Source: Malacoraja senta | Taxonomy: Eukaryota | Length of the DNA: 64,000 nucleotides | Assembly (NCBI GenBank): GCA_038087875.1 | Contig: CM075987.1 | Span: 25,050,001 to 25,114,000 of the forward strand | Reading direction: 5' to 3' | Part shown: piece by piece, positions 1 to 54,233 of the stretch | Numbering within the stretch: the stretch's first letter is position 1 | Layout: each line of letters opens with the position of its first letter | The notes under the pieces: generated by a model | Database searches by the model: none | What the model was told of the DNA's origin: nothing | The model's input: the letters and a program-made list of their open reading frames with translations, nothing else | Program-made: the position numbers and the translations under genes

Positions 1-416
1 CCTTGTACAGTTTATCAGGTCATTTCACTGGGCGTAGGATCATCTTGGATTTAGTTTCCAATTTGGTATTGACTTGCTCTCGCCAACACTACTAATATCG
101 CTATGTTTTGGAGACTTGTTTTTAAGTTTTTGAATCTCCACTTTGTGAAAACGTCTTCCAAATTATTTTGCTTTTTGTTTGTAACATCATGATGGGGAAA
201 AGGAGCCTGATCCATAGTGAGCACTAGTCCATTGGAAGAAGACATCTAAAAACCAGACCGCTTATTCAACTTAAGTTGGAGACAGAGGGTCATCTAAATG
301 TTAACAGTTGCAGGGACCCTAAATCTGAAGACCAAAGTTTACATAATCCTTGGATGAAAGATCTCAAAACCATGGCAGCCTTAGAGAGGTGTGCTCAGTA
401 AATATTCTGGAGGATT

Positions 417-2790: not shown

Positions 2791-3595
2791 TTATAAGAAT
2801 AGCACAAACAAAACAAACTACAAGGCATGGATTTTTTTGCATTCACAGTGTCACCAGTCTATACATTCATGTCATCATATTTGCCCTGCTATCAAGTAGC
2901 TAAATTCTATGTATAAAATATCAAAGGGTGTGAGAAGGAACTGCAGATGCTGGTTTAAACCAAAGATAGACTCAAAAAGTTGGAGTAATTCAGCGGGACA
3001 GGCAGCATCTCTGGAGAGAAGGAATGGGCGATGTTTAGTGTCAAGACCCTTCTTCAGACACAAAACATCATCCATTCCTTCACTCCAGAGATGCTGCTTG
3101 AATTCCGAAGGTTAATTGGGTTCAGTAAAATTGTAAATTGTTCCTGGTGTGCGTACGATAGTGTTAGTGTGTGGCGATCTCTGGTCGGCACGGACTCGGT
3201 GGGCCAAAGGGCTTGTTTCTGCGCAGTATCTCTAAACTAAACTAAAAATAGGTTAGTAGTAGGAGAAACAGTTTGGGCTTTGGGTCAATGGTCGTTCATC
3301 AAAACTTTATCTGTATCTGATGAAGGATTAATACATCTCTATTCCCCTCTCTGGAGATGCTGCCTGACCTGAATATCTCCAGGACTTTAAAAATATATAT
3401 TTTTACATTAGGAGATAATTGTTTGTAAAAGAAAACACACATTTGAAAAGTACTTTCATACGCTGAAGACTTTCCAAACATAACCCCATCCAATTAACAG
3501 TTTGGAAGTGTGGTTCATGTATCATTTTGAGGAGCAAAGTAGTCAGTTAGAAAATTCCTATGCAGTGCTATAAATGGTCTGATAATTAATTTTAC

Positions 3596-3799
3596 TGTGC
3601 AGGAAGGAACTGCAGGTGCTGGTTTAAATCGAAGATAGACACAAAATGCTGGAGTAACTCAGGGGAACAGGCAGCATCTCTGGAGAGAAGGAATGGGCGA
3701 CGCTTCGGGTGGAGAAGGGTCTCGACCCGAAACGTCACCCATTCCTTCTCTCCAGAGATGCTGCCTGTCCCGTTGAGTTACTCCAGCATTTTGTGTCTA
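3596..3799. mobile_element. Penelope-derived fold-back (inverted pLTR) element
   Basis: Arm AGACACAAAATGCTGGAGTAACTC...GAAGGAATGGGCGACG followed by its reverse complement; partial hammerhead core GGGTCTCGACCCGAAACGTC. Confidence 0.75.
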
Positions 3800-9364: not shown

Positions 9365-9565
9365 TTCATAAATTCTAGGAGCAAAATTTGGCCATTCGGC
9401 CCATCAAGTCTACTCCGCCATTCAATCATGGCTGATGTATATCTCTCCCTCCTAACCCCATTCTCCTGCCTTCTCCCCGTAACCCCTGACACCCGTTCTG
9501 ATCAAGAATCTATCTATCTCTGCCTTAAAAATATCCAATGACTTGTCCTCCACAGCCTTCTGTCT
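9365..9565 (-). mobile_element. CR1 LINE 3' end
   Basis: Encodes [35 protein letters not shown] plus CR1 3' UTR. Confidence 0.8.
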
Positions 9566-11067: not shown

Positions 11068-11247
11068 AGAAGCCAAGAAATATCAAGACCACAGAGGATC
11101 AGTTCTGAAGAAGACAAGAGACTCAGTGTGGCTATCCAATCTACTCCTCGCATGATTTTGTACACCTCTTTAACATCTCCCCCTGCGCTTAACAGCGCCT
11201 CCTGCGCTCCAAGCCTGCTCAACCTCTTCCTACAGGTCGAGACTCTT

Positions 11248-11275
11248 CTGAAGAAGGGTCTCGACCCGAAACGTC
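11248..11275 (+). ncRNA. Minimal hammerhead ribozyme core inside a Penelope pLTR fragment (about 11235-11378)
   Basis: CTGAAGA-A-GGGT(CTCG)ACCC-GAAA-CGTC gives CUGANGA, stem II, GAAA, palindromic ACGU stem III and a GUC cleavage triplet. Confidence 0.65.
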
Positions 11276-11494
11276 ACCCATTCCTTCTCTCCAGAGATGC
11301 TGCCTGTCTCGCTGAGTTACTCCAGCATTTTTGTATCTATCTTCGGTTTAAACCAGCACCTACAGTTCCTTCCTACATATGATGCCCAATATGTGCAGCG
11401 AGGAATGGTATCTTCCGTATACATATTGCGCTGTCCTCATTAAAACACATTCAAATTTATTGTACTTGCCCCTGATACAGCTGATGAATAACAA

Positions 11495-15782: not shown

Positions 15783-15955
15783 TAATCTGAAGACAGACAC
15801 AAAATGCTGGAGTAACTCAGCGGGACAGGTGGCATCTCTGGAGAGAAGGAATGGGTGACATTTCTGGTCGAGACTCTTCTTCAGAGAGATGCTGCCTGTC
15901 CCGCTGAGTTGACTCCAGCATTTTGTGTCTATCTTCAGTCTTATTGGCAGCATCT
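15783..15955. mobile_element. Penelope-derived fold-back element
   Basis: GACACAAAATGCTGGAGTAACTCAGCGGGACAGG arm plus its inverted copy. Confidence 0.7.
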
Positions 15956-16130
15956 GAAGGTGGCTTTCCACACGGAGCCAGCTCCTCCTTGCCGGCTGGC
16001 AGAGGTGGTCGGCGTGCCCAGAAACGTTATGGACCTAGGCCCATTTAATTCACCCAGACCCATGTCCCACCAAATCAATACGAAGTTTAAGAAGATTGCG
16101 AAGATCAGAACGCCATTGGTTACCCAACCC

Positions 16131-16588
16131 CTTACAACCCAGCGGTACGAATATTGATTTCTCTAATTTCAAGTAACCTTTGCATCCCCCCTCTCCCTCC
16201 AACCCCCCCCCCTCCCCCAAGCTTCAAAGTCATCTTGTTGAGTCTCATTGCAGTACAGAACATCACAGGAGATCCTTCGTCCCTGTGGCTATCAAACTGT
16301 ACAACTCCTCCCCCTTCTGTCGTGGGGTAGACTGACTCCACTTCTCCCCTCCCCCCCACCCCTCCCCAATCTTTGCACATCCCCAATCCTTTCCACTCGT
16401 CACTTTAATTTCATGTTTCACGTATCTTGTGTTTTATAACTGCTGGCAGATCATTTTCCCGGAATAAATAAAGTTCTATCGTATCGTTTTGTATCGTCTG
16501 TAACTCGTTTTCACCCAGCCCACAGCTAACAATGGCCTGTTTCCATTATCATCTTTACTTTTTTGCACATCTTTCACTCATTTGTTCT
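16131..16588 (+). mobile_element. Penelope 3' region, continuing at 19096-19240 after a LINE insertion
   Basis: LQPSGTNIDFSNFK* resembles the GIY-YIG C-terminus; host CTCATTTGTTCT|ATATC matches the copy at 46260-46520. Confidence 0.65.
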
Positions 16589-19095
16589 TGGTTCTTGGTT
16601 CTTGGTTTCTTGGTCCTCCAAAATATTCCAAATGGAATTTAAACTGGAGGTGGTGGAGGGAGGACTTAAGCCAGAAAGGGTTTTTGGGAAGAAAGAGCTA
16701 CCTTAAATTTAGTTGCATCTGGTTGGGTAACTATAGTAGGGTGGAGATTATTCCATGCTTTAATTGTGCGGGGGAAGAATGAATTGCTGTACACATCTGT
16801 CTTGGTAGCTGGAATCACAAATTGGATCGAATGCCCTCGTCTGCTCCTAGTTGGTTTGGGTTTGGTGTAGGTCTTGTAATCTATGTCGAGCTGACCATTT
16901 AACATTTTGTAAAAACAGGTCAAACGGTGAGCTTCACGTCTGTCTTGGAGAGGGTTCCACCCCAGAGAATTCAGAAGTTTGGTAACACTCGCTTCTCTCT
17001 CATAGGTGTTAGTAACAAATCGAGCTGCCTGTCTTTGGACACGTTCGATGGAAGAAATGTTTTTATTTGTGTATGGGTCCCATGCTGCAACTGCGTAGTC
17101 CAAATGAGGTCTAACGAGGGTGAAGTATAGATTCTCCTTGACAGAAGTTGAACAATGATGAAAGTTGCGTCTCAGAAAATTTAGGACACCTGTTGCTTTC
17201 ACCGTTGCATGATGAGGCTGACCATTCCAACGCAGATCATTCTGCAATTTGATGCCAAGATACTTGGTTTGTTTGGATTCTTCAAGGGTGGTACCAAGTA
17301 TATTGTACAATGTTTCGCCTGGATTCCTCTTTCTGGTGACACGCATGGTTTCACATTTGGAAGGGTTGAACTGCATGCCCCATTGGTGTGACCACTCAAC
17401 CATTGTATCGAGGTCCTTTTGGAGAGCATCTTCATCATCAGCTGACTTAATTGGACGGTACAGCAAACAATCATCAGCGAATAGTCTGGTCGTGCTTGCG
17501 ACTTTTTCATGGATGTCGTTTATGTAAAGCAAAAACAGATGTGGGCCAAGTACTGTGCCCTGAGGTGTACCACTCAACACTGGATGCCAATTGGAGCTCT
17601 TTCCATTCACACACACACACGCTGAAGACGTTTTGTCAGAAAACTGGAAATCCATCGTTTCGTGTTGGAACGAATACCATAGAAGTCAAGCTTCCGAAGC
17701 AGTCTCTGGTGTGGGATGACATCAAACGCTTTAGAAAAGTCCAGCACTACTAAATCCGTGATGACATTACCATCAAGATGTTTGGCCAGGTCATTTGTCG
17801 TCAGGATAAGCTGAGACTCACATCATCTATGCCTCCTAAATGCATGTTGGTTGTCAGCAAGAATATTATGTTTGCTCACGTGTCGCATCAGATTACTATC
17901 AATTACATGGTCCAGTAATTTGCAGCAAGTACTTGTTAATGAAACAGGACGATAATTTGCTTGGTTGGTGGTTGAACCTTTTTTAAAGAGAGGAGTGATG
18001 TTAGCCTTCCTCCAATCCAGCGGAACATCACCTGAGTCAAGCGATTGTTGGAAAATGAACTGCAAAACTGGAGCCAGTTCTTCGGCCGCGATCTTGAGGG
18101 CTTGATTCTGTATCTGATCTGGTCCAATTGCTTTTGTGGTATTGATGTTGAGCAATAACTTCTTGACACCTTCAACCTCAATTTTAATAGCAGGCATATC
18201 AGCATACGGGCTGGGCGGTAGAACTGGAAATGATGAAGGCTCCATATCTTCCCGGGTGAAAACGTGTTGGAATTGGTTTGCAAGAGCTTCTGCTTTCGCC
18301 TGGTCCTCAGTGATCAGACAGTTGTTCACTTTAAGCATCTGGACACCAGTGTTGTCTGTCCGTCTGGATTTCACATATCTCCAAAAAGCCTTGGGTTGCT
18401 CTCCCCCAAGAATAGAAGAAACATGTTGTCTATGAGCACTCCTAATAGCACGATCGACTTGCTTTTGCATTCTAGTCAAATTGTCCCAGTCCAGTTTTGT
18501 ACCCCTTTTTTTGGTACGGATATAAAACTTCTCTTTCTTACTGCAGAGACGTTTCAGTTTTGCCGAAAACCAAGGAGGACGCATACGGCCCTTAATGAGT
18601 TTTTGAGGAAAATGATTTGTAACAATATTATTTAAAGAGTCTCTCAGCCACACCCAGTTGTCATTTACGGATCTTTTACCTGGTTGCAGGTTGAAGAAAT
18701 CTTTTCCCAGTTTTTTTGCTAAGACTTTAAATTCCTCGCTGTGCACTTTTCTCCAGAGGGAAATGTTACGCGGTGGCTTTGAAGGAACTTTAAGCTTTGT
18801 GTGCAGTTTTGCTTGGATAATATAATGATCGCTAATTCCAGCACACGATGAAACTTCCGAAATTAAATCTGGGTGAGAAGTGAACAGTAAATCTAGAGTA
18901 TTTTCGGTGCCACTTGTCTCATCACGTCTGGTAGGGAAAGTGACTTTTTGGGACAGGTGATTTTCCAGAGTAAGGTCAGCTAGGGCTTCCTGGAGAGCTC
19001 CTTCTGGTTCACTTTGTATGCCGTCAGACCAATCTGTATGCCGTCACTTTGGATGCCGTCAGACCACTCGGCATACAATCTGACGGCATAAACAA
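16589..19095 (-). mobile_element. CR1/L2-group LINE of invertebrate-like (Daphne/Crack-like) type, 5'-truncated
   Basis: EN end (TLDLLFTSHPD, GISDH); RT motifs GPDQI, YRPVSLTS, GTPQGTVLGP, FADDC, SFFPRTIKAWNNL; (CCAAGAA)n tail; TGTTCT duplicated at 16583-16588 and 19096-19101. Confidence 0.85.
16666..19015 (-). pseudogene. EN-RT ORF with one nonsense mutation and one frameshift
   Basis: ORFs 17823-18746 and 16666-17655. TGA at 17823-17825 replaces S in RHRSCESQL; frameshift at the (CA)n run 17608-17620. Confidence 0.85.
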
Positions 19096-19269
19096 TGTTC
19101 TATATCTATTTATATCACTGTCTATATCTCTTGTATCCCTCTCTCCAGACTCTCAGTCTGAAGAAGGATTTTGCCCTGAAACGTCAGCTATTCCTTTTCT
19201 CCAGAGGTGCTGTCTGACCCGCTGAGTTACTCCAGCTATTGGGTGGGTGTGGCGGGTGGCAGCTCAAGT

Positions 19270-20992: not shown

Positions 20993-21185
20993 AGACACAA
21001 AATGCTGGAGTAACTCAGCGGGACAGGAAGCATCCCCGAATGGAAGGAATGGGTAACTTTTCGGATCCCAAAACAACCCAAAATGTCACCCATTCCTTCT
21101 ATTTGGAGACGCTGCCTGTCCCGCTGAGTTACTCCAGTATTTTGTGTTTATCTTCAGTGTAAAGCAGCATCTGCAGTTCCATCCT
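20993..21185. mobile_element. Penelope-derived fold-back element inserted in a CR1 fragment
   Basis: 15-bp TSD TCACATTTCAAGTAT at 20978-20992 and 21186-21200; inverted arms. Confidence 0.8.
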
Positions 21186-21409
21186 TCACATTTCAAGTAT
21201 TGTGTTCAGTTTTGGGCGCTGCGCTCTAGGAAGGATGCTGTTAAGGTGGAAAGAGTGCAGAGAAGATATGAGGATGTTGCCAGCACTTGAGGGCCTGAGC
21301 TATAGAGAGTGGTTGTGCAGGCTAGTTCTTTACTCCTTGGAGTGCAGGAGGATGAGGCCAGATCTTATTGAGGTGTAGAAGGTCATGAAGGGGATAGATG
21401 AAGAGAATG

Positions 21410-22895: not shown

Positions 22896-23170
22896 CGAAT
22901 CTATTTATTTGTTTGCGGGTAAAATAGCAGACATAATTGCAGACGTGAGCGTGTTTGAGTTGATTATTGGAGGGGTTTACACCACCTGCAAAATGCCGCC
23001 TTAACCCATCCTTCATTCACCACTCCTCATTTATCCTCGATAAATACTATCACCCAAACAAGACAGACCTGAGATAGGCACAAAATACTGGAGTAACTCA
23101 GCCGGACAGTCAGCATCTCTGGATAGAAGGAATGGGTGACATTTCGGGTCGCGACCCTTCTTTAGAGTGA

Positions 23171-23416
23171 AGGGCCTGTCTCGCTTGGCGATTTTTTTCG
23201 GCGACTGTCGGCATCATTGACTGACGTATCAGGTCACCGAAAAACTCGAGGCGTGACGCGGCGTGATGACGTATCGACGCGCGGAGTCTCCTCAAGTGTC
23301 GTAACATTTTTTTGTCGCCGCTGGATTTTGAAATGTTCAAAATCTTTTGGCTACCCTAATACATCAGTCAATGACGCTGGCAGTCGCCGAAAAAATCGCC
23401 AAGTGGGACAGGCCAT
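23171..23416. mobile_element. PIF/Harbinger-type MITE inserted in a Penelope pLTR
   Basis: About 60-bp TIRs starting AGGGCCTGTC; 3-bp TSD TGA on both sides, whose removal restores the host pLTR. Confidence 0.8.
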
Positions 23417-23449
23417 TGAGAGTCAAGGGATAGGGGAACGAGAGATAGA

Positions 23450-26302: not shown

Positions 26303-26437
26303 GACGCAAAATGCTGGAGTAACTCAGCGGGACGTTTCGGGTCGAGGTCTGAGGAAGGGTGTCGACCTGAAACGTCACCCATTCCTTCCATCCGGAGATG
26401 CTGCCTGTCCCGCTGAGTTACACCAACATTTTGTGTG
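26303..26437. mobile_element. Penelope-derived fold-back element
   Basis: Inverted arms with core CTGAGGAAGGGTGTCGACCTGAAACGTC at 26349. Confidence 0.65.
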
Positions 26438-27678: not shown

Positions 27679-27827
27679 TTTAGGTCATTCGGCCCATCCA
27701 GTCTGTTCTACCATTCAACCATGGCTGACCTATCTTTCCCTCTCAACCCCAGAATGAGGTTGAGAGGGAAAGATAGGTCAGCCATGGTTGAATGGTAGAG
27801 TAGACTGGATGGGCTGAATGACCTAAA
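27679..27827. repeat. Inverted repeat of a CR1 3' UTR; 70-nt arms, 9-nt loop
   Basis: 27679-27748 is the reverse complement of 27758-27827 with about 3 mismatches. Confidence 0.9.
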
Positions 27828-37185: not shown

Positions 37186-38355
37186 AATTTGAGTGACTGG
37201 TCCAATTTATTTCTCCCCTCAAAGCAAAGAGTAATGAAGGAAACAACACACCAGATATGTGACATCAATGACATTGATGTTTCCCTTCAAGTTAAAAGAG
37301 CTTGAGTCCGGAGACTATGAGGAGTCGTCAGCTCCAGGCCAATCAAATATTCTTGATCAATCAAATAATTGAACAAATCTCAAAAGCATTTTGACTTTAA
37401 TGATTGTTTAACGACATAGAACGATTCAATGTGGTTGAGAGAGAAGGATAAGGTCATAAGGTCATGTGATTGGAGTAGAATTAGGCCATTCTGCCCATCA
37501 AGTCTACTCCACCATTCAATCATGGCTGATTTATCTCTCCCTCCTATCCCCATTCTGCTGCCTTCTCCTTATAACTCCTGACATGGATAGATCAGCCATG
37601 ATTGAATGGCGGAATAGACTTGATGGGCTGAATGGCCCAATTCTCTCCCTATCCCTTATGACCATGTGAGGTTTTCAGGTGCAGTGCTCAGAGATTAGTA
37701 CAGGTGTTAGGGGTTATGAGTGGAATGGGGTTAAGAGGGAAAGATAGATCAGCCATGATTGAATGGCAGAGTAGACTTGATGGGCCGAATGGCCTAATTC
37801 TGCTCGTAGAATTTATGACCTTATGATTCTTGCGAAGACATTAAGGAGAATACTCGAAGCAAAGTTTGAGCAGTTTACCTTTGAAGGTCCATTATAACTG
37901 ACATGGTTCTTGCAGAATAATTGCATCCTGAGATCCCAGACTGAGCAAAACCAAAGTCAAAATGCAGCTTTAAATGCAAAAGGAGGTGAAAAAATGATTG
38001 CCGTCTCTGACCTGAATGGAAGACAGATGTGTGGGGAGAGAGAGAGAGAGATTGTGGGGAGTCTGTTAAACAATGCCAAAGCCAGGGAAAGTTAAGCGCA
38101 CCGCATAAGATATTCAATCCCAGGCTCTGATGATGTCAGAAAGTAGGACCAATTATACTTGCACTCAATGAGGATGCTTAACTCTCTGAAAGCAGTAACA
38201 ATTCCTTCCAGAGGTAATTATAGGTAATAAAGGTGAGAATATTTGGCACCAAAGGGCAAAAGGCTGGTGGGTGTATGGAATGAGCTGCCAAAGGAGGTAG
38301 TTGAGGCAGGGACTATCCCAACATTTAAGAAACAATCAGACATGTACATGGATAG

Positions 38356-38696
38356 TGTTAAAGAAGGAACTGCAGATGCTGGAAAATCGAAGGTACACAA
38401 AAATGCTGGAGAAACTCAGCGGGTGCAGCAGCATCTATGGAGCGAAGGAGATAGGCAACGTTTCGGGCCGAAACCCTTCTTCAGACTGATAGGGGGTGGG
38501 GAGAAGAAAGGAAAAAAGGAAAAAGGCGGAGGAGGAGCCCGAGGGCTGGGGGAGGGGAGGAGACAACCAGATGGCTGATGATGGGGAGGGGACAGCAAGG
38601 GCTAGCAGAATTGGGAGAATTCAATGTTCAGGCCACCAGGATGTAGACTGCCCAAGCGGAATATGAGGTGCATTTCCTCCAATTTACGGTGTTGGC
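38356..38696 (-). mobile_element. Penelope-like element 3' end (GIY-YIG C-terminus plus pLTR with hammerhead core), inserted in CR1
   Basis: 38602-38691 (-) encodes HRKLEEMHLIFRLGSLHPGGLNIEFSQFC*; intact core CTGAAGAAGGGTTTCGGCCCGAAACGTT at 38457-38484 (-); 10-bp TSD ACATGGATAG. Confidence 0.85.
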
Positions 38697-41290: not shown

Positions 41291-41823
41291 CTTGTGTTGC
41301 CTGCTACACATACACATCACCATACATAGATATCACTATCCATAAGCACTCGCACACATTTTTACTTAAATCTGCAGAAAAACATACATTTTTCCATCGA
41401 AGCCGATTGAAAAAATCTATTGATCAGTTTTCAAGGACTTCACCTCTCGCAAATTTCTATCTTCCTCGTGTATTTGCTCGTTGTACAAGTTCCATGGCAG
41501 CACCACCATTGTGTAATTTATTTAAGGTATGCATGCTTATACCCCTGGTGAATTTTCAATCAGATTGCACCTCAGTTGGTTCAGATAAGTCTTGCTGGAA
41601 ACTAACTCAGCAGTCAAATCTGCAAACCTATTCTCAAGAGTTCTCATTAAAATTGGACCAACATGCCCAAAGATGTGCTGGTGCATAAGGTTTCTATTTC
41701 TCTTGTGCTAATTAAGAACAAGAGGGAATATAACACAGAGCTGCATTATATTTGGTTATTGGAAATGTTACCTGGGGTTTGCGCACTGAGTTATTGAATT
41801 GATAATATGCTGAGGCTTTGTAA

Positions 41824-42060: not shown

Positions 42061-42121
42061 TCAGGTCATAGTTCTAACTGATACCACACTGAAAAACGAA
42101 GTGTATTACAACTTCAATTGA

Positions 42122-42338
42122 ATGTACACAAATATGCTGGAGAAACTCAGCGGGTGCAGCAGCATCTATGGAGCGAAGGAAATAGGCAACGTTTCGGGCC
42201 GAAACCCTTCGTCTGAAGAAGGGTTTCGGCCCGAAACGTTGCCTATTTCCTTCGCTCCATAGATGCTGCTGCACCCGCTGAGTTTCTCCAGCATTTTTGT
42301 GTACCTTCGATTTTCCAGCATCTGCAGTTCCTTCTTAA
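42122..42338. mobile_element. Young Penelope-derived fold-back element with intact hammerhead core (42213-42240)
   Basis: About 87-nt arms (42124-42210, 42218-42304) with 1 mismatch; 14-bp TSD ACAACTTCAATTGA at 42108-42121 and 42339-42352. Confidence 0.88.
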
Positions 42339-42352
42339 ACAACTTCAATTGA

Positions 42353-43050
42353 GTTTAGTTCAGAGATACAGCGCTGAAACAGGCCCTTCGGCCCACCGAG
42401 TCCGCACTGACCTGCAACCCCCACACAATAACACTATCCTACACACACTAGGGACAATTTACAATTATATCAAGCCAATTAACCAACAAACCTGTACGTC
42501 TTTGGAGTGTGGGAGGAAACCGGACATCCCGGAGAAATCCCACGCGGGTCACGGGGAGAACGAACAAACTCCGTACCGACAGCACCCGTAGTCAGGCTCG
42601 AACCCGGGTCTCTGCCGCTGTAAGGAGGCAACTCTACCGCTGCGCCACCGTGCACTCCTGTGAAAATAATGTGAACATCAACTGCTCACGTCCCATAACC
42701 AGGCAATCACACCCACACTACTGCCGGAATCATTAGTAGATTGCAGCTAAATGCACAGGGCGGCACGGTAGCGCAGCGGTAGAGTTGCTGCCTTACAGCG
42801 CCAGAGACCCGGGTGCGATCCTGGCCATGGGTGCTGTCTGTACGGAGTTTGTACGTTCTCCCCGTGACCGCGTGGGTTTTGTCCGGTTTCCTCCCACATT
42901 CCAAGACGTACATGTTTGTAGGTTAATTAGCTTTGGTAAAGATTGTATATTATCCCCAGAGTGCGTAGGATAGCGCGAGTGAACGGGGATCGCTGATCGG
43001 CGCGGACACGGTGGGCCGAAGGGCCTGTTTCCACGCTGCATCTCAAAACT
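42353..43050. mobile_element. Divergent pair of HE1-like SINEs (42353-42652 -, 42757-43050 +)
   Basis: Two full-length copies head-to-head, about 105 bp apart. Confidence 0.88.
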
Positions 43051-43574
43051 GGGGTCAAGGAAAGAGCGTTCCAGTCGCGGCCCTGTTTCCACCAATCTTT
43101 CCACCACCACTCACAAGAAGCGACGAGACAAGCACCATTGTACGCAGATGCCGAGAAGTGTGTTCAGCTCTGGCTGAACAACTTCTAATCTTGTGTGTGG
43201 ACTCGATAAGAAGAAGATCTCAAAACTAAACTAAATTAAACTAGAATCTCTGTGAGTGTGTTAGAAGGAACTGCAGATGCTGGTTTACACCGAAGATAGA
43301 CACAAAATGCTGGAATAACTCAAAGGGGCAGGCAGCATCTCTGGAGAAAAGGAATAGGCAAAATCCCAACTCTGCACCAGAAGGAAAAGACACAGGAAGA
43401 AATCGTATTATTGTGCAAGTAATTTAATGGCGAACAAAGTCCTCTCATACCATCAAATATTGATGAAACATGCTGGAAGCTGCCAGCCTATGGTCCAAAT
43501 AATTCTGCTCAAATCCTATTATCCTCCAGGGGTCTGAAAAACTGGCCAAATACTTGGCATGAAACTAAAATTCA

Positions 43575-54046: not shown

Positions 54047-54233
54047 TGTGTAGGAAAGAACTGCAGATGCTGGTTTAAATCGAAGATACACAAAATGCTG
54101 GAGCACCTCAGCGAAACAGGCAGCATCTCTGGAGAGAAGGAAGACTGAAGAAGGGTCTCGACTCGAAACGTCACCCATTCCTTCTCTCCAGAGATGCTGC
54201 CTGTTCCGCTGAGTTACTCCAGCATTTTGTGTC
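54047..54233. mobile_element. Penelope-derived fold-back element with hammerhead-like core (54145-54172)
   Basis: Inverted arms; AACCTCCAA repeated on both flanks. Confidence 0.75.

What the first reader, a model, noticed from the sequence alone, without database searches (positions are those of the whole stretch)
42108..42352. A ~200-bp fold-back, ribozyme-bearing, non-coding unit inserted with its own TSD (retrozyme/MITE-like Penelope derivative)
Seen: 87-nt inverted arms with one mismatch, an intact hammerhead core next to the loop, no coding sequence and a perfect 14-bp TSD. The same architecture recurs at 20993-21185 (15-bp TSD), 54047-54233, 3596-3799, 15783-15955 and 26303-26437, each with a different fold-back point but always at or near the ribozyme core. 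Established: PLE insertions often have inverted 5' pLTR portions. Inference: reverse transcription repeatedly stalls or snaps back at the hammerhead, or a small hairpin RNA is mobilised in trans.
Basis: partly seen in the sequence, partly recalled or inferred. Interest (0 to 1): 0.7.

Follow-up and report, generated by a model that had tools for sequence, protein, structure and literature searches.

The report
Truncated fold-back Penelope retroelement insertion
This 220-base hairpin is the stub of a Penelope-type jumping gene that left two head-to-head copies of its end sequence at one cut site, a layout already known for this class, so it is mostly ordinary, though such stubs may show where the element's RNA begins.

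Summary
In detail: 87-nt inverted arms (one mismatch), a 7-nt loop, a minimal hammerhead motif and a perfect 14-bp TSD. It is neither a retrozyme nor a MITE. The right arm is 98% identical to a nearby non-folded copy (38356-38691) that still carries the end of a GIY-YIG ORF; that ORF's relatives are Neptune-type Penelope-like proteins. The unit is the published PLE layout (inverted pLTR + direct pLTR + 35-nt tail + TSD) with the ORF missing. Its two outer ends sit on the family's two 3' ends seen in public runs, matching the two RT start sites known for a lizard PLE. All 8 fold-backs in the window have different junctions, and no arm starts at the ribozyme cleavage site. As RNA the ribozyme would be locked in the duplex. 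Best mechanism (inferred): both nicked target strands prime short cDNAs that end at a boundary just 5' of the hammerhead core and are joined head-to-head. That boundary looks like the template's 5' end (initiator or splice acceptor) more than a stall, but this is untested. A genome-wide junction histogram could not be made.

The parts
42108..42121 (+). Left target-site duplication (14 bp)
42122..42210 (-). Inverted pLTR copy without tail: element positions +6 to +94 (position +1 = C3 of the hammerhead core, 42213)
   Evidence: its outer end falls on the short 3' end seen in runs (loose ends 38389-38392 = +96 to +93)
42211..42217 (+). 7-nt loop = positions -1 to +5 of the direct copy; blunt junction without microhomology
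42211..42306 (+). Direct pLTR copy, 5'-truncated at position -1
   Evidence: 98% identical over 131 nt (with tail) to the ORF-bearing copy at 38356-38486
42211..42242 (+). Minimal type I hammerhead motif of PLE kind; predicted cut between 42240 and 42241 (GUU triplet); paired into the long duplex from 42218 on
   Evidence: descriptor from PMC4209133
42307..42341 (+). 35-nt PLE 'tail' between the short and the long 3' end
   Evidence: loose ends at 38356 (+129) and 38389-38392; tail as defined in PMC8557442, PMC3846280, PMC11167929
42339..42352 (+). Right target-site duplication; first 3 nt shared with the element end
38356..38691 (-). Sibling non-folded copy of the same young subfamily: ORF end + 3' UTR + pLTR + tail, 10-bp TSD
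38602..38691 (-). Last 29 codons and stop of a PLE ORF (C-terminus of the GIY-YIG domain)
3596..3799 (.). Fold-back, arms start at +2 / +17; degenerate 15-bp TSD
20993..21190 (.). Fold-back, arms start at +16 / +18 with about 9 nt between; perfect 15-bp TSD
54047..54233 (.). Fold-back, arms start at +1 / +34; TSD 9 bp exact, 14 bp with 2 mismatches
15783..15975 (.). Fold-back, arms start at 0 / +46; no TSD found
26303..26437 (.). Fold-back, arms start at +13 (internally deleted) / -1; both arms lack the tail
2928..3101 (.).
11233..11378 (.).

Best explanation
A dead-on-arrival, extremely 5'-truncated insertion of an endonuclease-bearing Penelope-like element (Neptune type) in a skate-like genome, laid down in the known layout: inverted pLTR, direct pLTR, tail, TSD. 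Shown: the anatomy, the parent family, the two 3' ends, unique junctions. Inferred mechanism: the GIY-YIG endonuclease makes staggered nicks about 11-14 nt apart; one nicked strand primes reverse transcription at the downstream start site (+129, giving the tail), the other at the upstream site (about +94); both cDNAs stop at or shortly before a boundary at about -2 to +2 and are joined end to end. The boundary is most simply the 5' end of the RNA template (RT starting in the upstream pLTR runs off after 95-130 nt); the hammerhead is at the junction because it lies at the head of that RNA. Odds: about 0.9 that it is a truncated PLE insertion, about 0.6 for two primed cDNAs, about 0.5 for template end over stall.
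For: Right arm 98% identical to an ORF-bearing copy; that ORF end matches skate and shark proteins with RT and C-terminal GIY-YIG and a CX4CxxC linker (linker marks Neptune/Nematis). Layout published. Two 3' ends 33-36 nt apart with unrelated AT-rich flanks in three of four runs, as for the two RT start sites of PAc, which cuts and extends both strands. Inverted-arm outer end at the short site in 5 of 8 fold-backs. In 3 of 8 units the inverted arm holds sequence absent from the other arm. 9 of 16 fold-back arms start at -1 to +6, none upstream of -1 (scan-corrected p about 1e-4 against uniform -30..60); with solo copies 14 of 29 start at -6 to +6 and 0 of 29 at -19 to -7. Copies that reach upstream show a 74-93% pyrimidine tract and TCAG|T right at this edge. 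Primer-template pairing at both ends of the focal unit: 3 bp, and 6 bp with one G.T. In PAc, product length follows the template's 5' end and is unchanged by ribozyme mutants.
Against: Only 8 fold-backs and 13 solo copies from one window; starts were called by hand and the bins chosen after seeing them. The focal unit alone (inverted arm inside the direct arm) fits snap-back equally well. The three asymmetric units are older (arms 88-93% alike) and may have lost their centres later; palindromes with spacers under 9 bp are nuclease targets in yeast. In 3 of 8 units the inverted arm does not end at the short site (+106, +59, +19). Microhomology at the short end is absent or 2 nt in the three other units with a TSD. 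PAc showed no strand difference in start-site use and no primer homology, and it is a Poseidon, not a Neptune. No data here map the RNA 5' end. No full-length parent was seen.
Confidence: 0.7

Rival explanations
1. One cDNA made from the tail end snaps back on itself near the hammerhead (or self-primes, as proposed for rotifer PLEs) and is copied back; the endonuclease then resolves the intermediate at the pLTR end.
For: Fits the focal unit and 3 others in which the inverted arm is nested in the partner. Short microhomologies at 2 junctions and at the one opposite-strand joint printed (+42/+3, 4 nt). Self-priming proposed in PMC3846280.
Against: 3 of 8 units have inverted arms with sequence the partner lacks, a fourth by 2 nt. 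The focal junction is blunt. The inverted arm's outer end coincides with the 3' end used by solo copies, as expected of a primed start. Both-strand extension is shown in vitro for PAc.
Confidence: 0.17
2. Two cDNAs as in the best explanation, but they stop because RT stalls at the folded hammerhead or the pyrimidine tract, not because the template ends. (Alternative to one step only; overlaps with the best explanation.)
For: 14 of 16 fold-back arms start between -1 and +18, across the ribozyme, not at one base. Helix II is intact in the focal copy.
Against: The pile-up is on the far (5') side of the ribozyme with an empty zone beyond; helix II is only 4 bp; 5 of 13 solo copies run well past it; PAc RT reads through its ribozyme in vitro.
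Confidence: 0.3
3. A true non-autonomous family: a hairpin RNA carrying the ribozyme (retrozyme- or MITE-like) is transcribed and re-inserted in trans.
For: Each unit has its own TSD. One fold-back joint (+42/+3) occurs in two organisms. PLE pLTRs can mobilise other sequence in trans; tandem retrozymes derive from pLTRs.
Against: 8 of 8 junctions differ; focal arms are 97-98% like the solo copy and at most 82-86% like any other arm. The focal junction is not among the 27 of 452 joint rows printed (weak, contigs can drop hairpins). Folding the ribozyme costs at least 34.6 kcal/mol and the RT start region would also be double-stranded. No tandem pair of ribozymes. No pile of read starts or ends in a polyA run of a related organism (blind to small and circular RNA). 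The recurring joint sits on a 4-nt microhomology.
Confidence: 0.05
4. Template cut by the ribozyme: cDNAs end at the self-cleavage site.
For: Core complete in 9 of 15 copies that span it; one solo copy starts at about +29.
Against: 0 of 16 fold-back arms and 1 of 13 solo copies start within 3 nt of +29; 14 of 16 arms read past it. No read ends there. Same negative for PAc.
Confidence: 0.02
5. Assembly or library artefact (palindromic chimera).
For: Fold-back chimeras occur in sequencing libraries (own knowledge). The focal locus itself was not checked against reads.
Against: Flanking TSD, two differences between the arms, tail on one side only, and 7 older units of the same build with diverged arms.
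Confidence: 0.01

Closest known systems
Canonical EN+ Penelope-like element insertions: inverted 5'-truncated pLTR + direct pLTR + 30-40-bp tail + TSD (A. vaga Pen2a, PMC3846280; PMC8557442 Fig. 2 legend; D. virilis Penelope, PMC2377424)
   Same: Head-to-head pLTRs, tail on one end only (35 nt here), 9-15-bp TSD, palindrome at the junction, minimal hammerhead in the pLTR.
   Different: No ORF between the repeats, so the whole insert is 220 bp; very dense (21 loci, 8 folded, in 64 kb).
PAc (Poseidon, Anolis) in vitro mechanism, PMC11167929
   Same: Two adjacent 3' ends bounding the tail; AT-rich targets; no sign that ribozyme cleavage sets the ends.
   Different: Parent here has the Neptune/Nematis linker; short primer-template microhomology is seen in several copies here, whereas PAc started without homology; in passages read, that paper does not discuss inverted pLTRs.
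Minimal type I hammerheads of metazoan PLEs, PMC4209133
   Same: Core, extra base between 9 and 10.1, G10.1-C11.1, palindromic 15.2-16.2; that paper already notes pairs 100-700 bp apart on opposite strands; 2-bp helix I and an intron end abutting helix I in D. virilis.
   Different: Here the only complete motif is blocked by its own antisense copy; GUU triplet in this subfamily.
Non-LTR retrozymes (PMC7229834; bioRxiv 10.64898/2026.07.22.740005)
   Same: Non-coding, pLTR-related, type I hammerhead.
   Different: Retrozymes are direct tandem repeats with two or more complete ribozymes and give circular RNA; this is one inverted pair with one complete motif.
L1 twin priming (recalled; no call)
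   Same: Both target strands prime, giving an inversion between TSDs.
   Different: L1 arms are different parts of one RNA; here both arms copy the same 89 nt, so the segment was copied twice.

Membership tests
EN+ Penelope-like element (truncated copy) | Derives from an element with RT and C-terminal GIY-YIG endonuclease | tested here: met
   Indirect: sibling copy (98%) carries an ORF end matching P0001-P0005; P0002 has RVT_1 (E 9e-5, below cut-off) and GIY-YIG (E 9e-5, above cut-off). No full-length skate ORF seen.
EN+ Penelope-like element (truncated copy) | pLTR with minimal hammerhead motif | tested here: met
   descriptor. Rfam gave no hammerhead match.
EN+ Penelope-like element (truncated copy) | Optional 30-40-bp tail / two 3' ends | tested here: met
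   loose ends at +129 and +93 to +96; alignment
EN+ Penelope-like element (truncated copy) | Inverted 5'-truncated pLTR and variable TSD | tested here: met
Neptune clade | CX2-5CxxC linker between RT and EN | tested here: met
   Seen by eye in P0002, P0004, P0005; definition. Shared with Nematis; read on relatives, not on the window's own element.
Neptune clade | RT phylogeny groups with Neptune | not tested
   No named reference set at hand.
Non-LTR retrozyme | Two or more consecutive direct repeats each with a complete hammerhead | tested here: not met
   One complete motif, partner inverted and lacking the first five core bases; definition.
Non-LTR retrozyme | Abundant small linear/circular RNA | tested here: inconclusive
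   Only a polyA run of a related organism: no pile of ends, 95% of reads run into other sequence, both strands alike.
Non-LTR retrozyme | Self-cleavage | not testable with these tools
   Folding predicts sequestration; no assay.
MITE (definition recalled) | Terminal inverted repeats at both ends and fixed short TSD | tested here: not met
   35-nt tail lies outside the arms; TSDs of 9-15 bp vary.
MITE (definition recalled) | Many copies of uniform structure | tested here: not met
   8 of 8 junctions differ in the window; genome-wide not settled.

The most novel reading that the evidence does not exclude
The main mobile unit of this family is a short, about 130-nt pLTR RNA that begins at the initiator/splice-acceptor edge two bases before the hammerhead core. 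Neptune protein copies it from both nicked strands of one target, using a different start site on each strand, so every fold-back is a double insertion whose junction records the RNA's 5' end. The skate genome would then hold a very large natural library of PLE transposition intermediates, and solo pLTRs would act as SINE-like partners.
Probability: 0.3. Interest if true: 0.55.

Novelty: new member of a known kind. Interest (0 to 1): 0.3.

Why it matters
As an object it is ordinary. Its value is as evidence on an open question: how PLEs make inverted pLTRs. Published ideas are self-priming (PMC3846280) and endonuclease resolution (PMC8557442); the in vitro work on PAc shows both-strand extension and two start sites. 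I found no paper joining these for inverted pLTRs in my searches (open-access library only, no supplements read). With 8 fold-backs per 64 kb here, a skate assembly should give enough junctions to decide between two-cDNA joining, snap-back and stall by counting alone. Short-spaced palindromes at this density could also be a source of DNA breaks (yeast data; inference for skate).

Tried and rejected
No whole genome is held, so no genome-wide histogram or empty-site test. Two scans of metagenome contigs for the motif: 0 matches. Rfam: only generic hairpin (miRNA-type) matches below gathering score; miRNA reading rejected. No RNA holder was listed for the region (no evidence either way). Reads were laid on the non-folded sibling, not on the focal locus, so the focal junction and its empty site remain unchecked. 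I first read the top rows of table 5c (from 38487 or 38476 to 38443-38446) as fold-backs with a cap-derived extra base; their order and in-between letters fit same-strand duplication better and their kind is not printed, so I dropped them as evidence. The steep fall in depth upstream of the core (X6 15.3M to 0.5M; X23 about 1500 to 35-54) fits the boundary but is confounded by subfamily divergence at 88% likeness, so it is not counted. ADAR editing: A>G plus T>C places are 36 of 132 in RNA against 18 of 78 in DNA contigs of the same organism, no signal. Pfam on the 29-aa ORF end: 0 families. The stretch 15976-16131 has no second copy in the window, so 15783-19240 could not be shown to be one element. 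Look-ups of earlier findings by place, sequence and a second word set gave nothing.

Full report
Observation. The sequence at 42108-42352 is as described. Arms 42124-42210 and 42218-42304 pair over 87 nt with one mismatch around a 7-nt loop. The 14-bp TSD is exact; 16 of 5000 random pairs of window stretches at that spacing share a word that long. I number the element from C3 of the hammerhead core (+1 = 42213). The direct copy runs from -1 to +129, the inverted copy from +6 to +94.

Parent. A BLAST of the right arm over the window, extended with two longer copies as queries, gives 21 loci: 8 fold-backs and 13 solo copies, 29 arms. The closest is 38356-38691 on the minus strand, 98% identical over 131 nt, not folded, with its own 10-bp TSD. 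Upstream of the pLTR it keeps a 3' UTR and the last 29 codons of an ORF. That peptide found one protein, from Leucoraja erinacea (83% identity; 1 hit of 2 candidates), a chimeric gene model whose C-terminal part has a weak GIY-YIG match. Its C-terminal region found 5 proteins among 141 candidates; of the four examined, three show RT and C-terminal GIY-YIG matches and one GIY-YIG only, most below Pfam's cut-off, and all four align back to the window's ORF end. Three show a CX4CxxC linker (by eye), the mark of Neptune/Nematis rather than Penelope/Poseidon (PMC8557442, passages). So the unit comes from an endonuclease-bearing Penelope-like element, probably Neptune, in a skate-like genome. No full-length copy was seen.

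Two 3' ends. I laid three contig sets and one polyA RNA run on the solo copy. Loose ends with unrelated AT-rich flanks pile up at +129 (195 contigs in X2, 261 in X6, 619 reads in X23) and at +93 to +96 (164 and 150; 250 and 235; 373-420). These rows are among 24 printed of 1250, and X1 shows neither among its six. The 35 nt between the ends is the PLE tail. In the lizard element PAc the tail is the stretch between two RT start sites, and the protein cuts and extends both target strands (PMC11167929, parts 1-2 of 4 and passages). The focal unit uses one end on each side. Five of 8 inverted arms end at the short site; three do not.

Known layout. Inverted 5'-truncated pLTR, direct pLTR, a 30-40-bp tail on one end and a TSD are described for PLEs in general (PMC8557442, passages) and for A. 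vaga Pen2a, with a 31-bp tail, 9-bp TSD and an initiator-like motif in the pLTR (PMC3846280, passages). Pairs of minimal hammerheads 100-700 bp apart on opposite strands were noted in 2014 (PMC4209133, parts 1-2 of 4). The focal unit is this layout without the ORF.

Family or by-product. The eight inner junctions are +6/-1, +2/+17, +16/+18, +1/+34, 0/+46, +13/-1, +16/-1 and +5/0: all different. The focal arms are 97-98% like the solo copy and at most 82-86% like any other arm, so folding arose separately in at least two subfamilies. In one search, 15 of 133 plain joints and 12 of 319 joints with inserted letters are printed; one is marked opposite-strand (+42/+3, on a 4-nt microhomology, in two organisms). 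The focal junction is not among them. This is weak evidence, because contigs can drop hairpins and the runs need not be the window's species.

Ribozyme. Core bases, the extra base after A9, a 4-bp helix II and the palindromic 2-bp helix III are present; helix I has 2 bp; the core is complete in 9 of 15 copies spanning it. Such motifs need a dimer and cleave poorly in vitro. In a transcript of this unit every base from G8 on is paired with probability above 0.99, and forcing the ribozyme fold costs 34.6 kcal/mol. Retrozymes are direct tandems with at least two complete ribozymes (bioRxiv 10.64898/2026.07.22.740005, parts 1-3 of 5; PMC7229834, passages); that test fails. No fold-back arm starts within 3 nt of the cleavage site at +29, and 14 of 16 read past it. 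In the RNA run, 7682 reads were laid from about 6% of the run; 95% continue into other sequence, both strands are alike, and no place collects starts or ends. That is a related organism and a polyA library, blind to small or circular RNA.

Where the arms stop. Nine of 16 fold-back arms start at -1 to +6 and none further upstream (p about 1e-4, scan-corrected, against an arbitrary uniform range). With solo copies, 14 of 29 start at -6 to +6, none at -19 to -7, and 5 solo copies much further up (starts called by hand, bins chosen afterwards). Four copies that reach well upstream show a 74-93% pyrimidine tract followed by TCAG and then position 0. This reads as an initiator with its A at -2 (consensus recalled) or as a splice acceptor; in D. 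virilis the intron ends at helix I and the promoter lies in the pLTR (PMC2377424, passages). In PAc the RT start sites lie near the head of the ORF, product length follows the template's 5' end, and ribozyme mutants change nothing. I infer that RT starting in the upstream pLTR runs off the RNA after 95-130 nt. This is not shown; a stall at the ribozyme or the pyrimidine tract remains possible.

Two cDNAs or snap-back. Snap-back needs the inverted arm to lie within its partner. That holds in 4 of 8 units, the focal one included; it fails clearly in 3 and by 2 nt in one. The three are older, and later loss of the centre could explain them; palindromes with spacers under 9 bp are cut in yeast (PMC8053094, passages). 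For two priming events: the inverted arm begins where solo copies end, and in the focal unit the target ends can pair with the template at both starts, 3 bp at the tail and 6 bp with one G.T at the short site. Overlap of TSD and tail end is 4, about 2, about 1 and 0 nt in four other copies with a clear TSD (read by eye), so it is common but not required; at the short site it is 2, 0 and 0.

Earlier notes of this scan on two other, shark-type genomes reached the same general verdict; they are unchecked notes and not counted as support.

Verdict. A real, young, truncated PLE insertion of known build; not a retrozyme, not a MITE, and unlikely to be a family of its own. What may be new is the reading of these stubs as double-primed products that end at the head of the element's RNA. 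I did not find that link in the searches or in the passages; subscription papers and all supplements were unseen. Interest 0.3.

Noticed in passing
window 27679-27827 and 37468-37805: Fold-backs of a different, non-Penelope repeat: 73-nt arms, 95% complementary, 3-nt loop at 27679; related inverted pairs at 37468-37653 and 37473-37805; solo pieces at 9387, 36503, 54773. Head-to-head doubling is not limited to the PLE here.
   Followed up: partly
table 5c, monomer places 38487/38443 and 38476/38444: Strongly supported joints (depth 993 in X2, 181 in X1; 429 in X2, 375 in X6) that best fit same-strand duplication of about 33-45 nt of the hammerhead region; if real, a variant with two ribozymes in tandem that could form the active dimer. 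Kind not printed.
   Followed up: partly
table 5, 38485 to 38390: Head-to-tail joint of a copy ending at +95 to one starting at 0 (X6, 2 contigs): a short-pLTR tandem, closer to a retrozyme than the focal unit.
   Followed up: no
window 16132-16600 and 19096-19240: One long copy of the commoner PLE subfamily (ORF end, 3' UTR, pLTR) split by a LINE-type RT insertion at about 16600-19090.
   Followed up: partly
window 23170-23417; similar terminus near 41823: A repeat with 28-bp terminal inverted repeats and 51-bp inner arms, likely a true MITE, abutting and probably interrupting a hammerhead-bearing PLE copy.
   Followed up: no
window 42353-42660 and 42754-43010: An old SINE-like repeat (46 BLAST pieces in the window; resembles the elasmobranch HE1 SINE, name recalled) begins right at the right TSD; a second copy lies inverted beside it.
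   Followed up: partly
window 11226-11377: Copy whose left flank repeats the last 9 nt of its own tail, with a 15-nt inverted piece ending at +19: priming on a tail-like target, or insertion behind an older copy's end.
   Followed up: no
window 43040-43102: Weak Rfam match to the CPEB3 ribozyme model (22.7 bits, gathering 35, E 0.15); probably chance.
   Followed up: no
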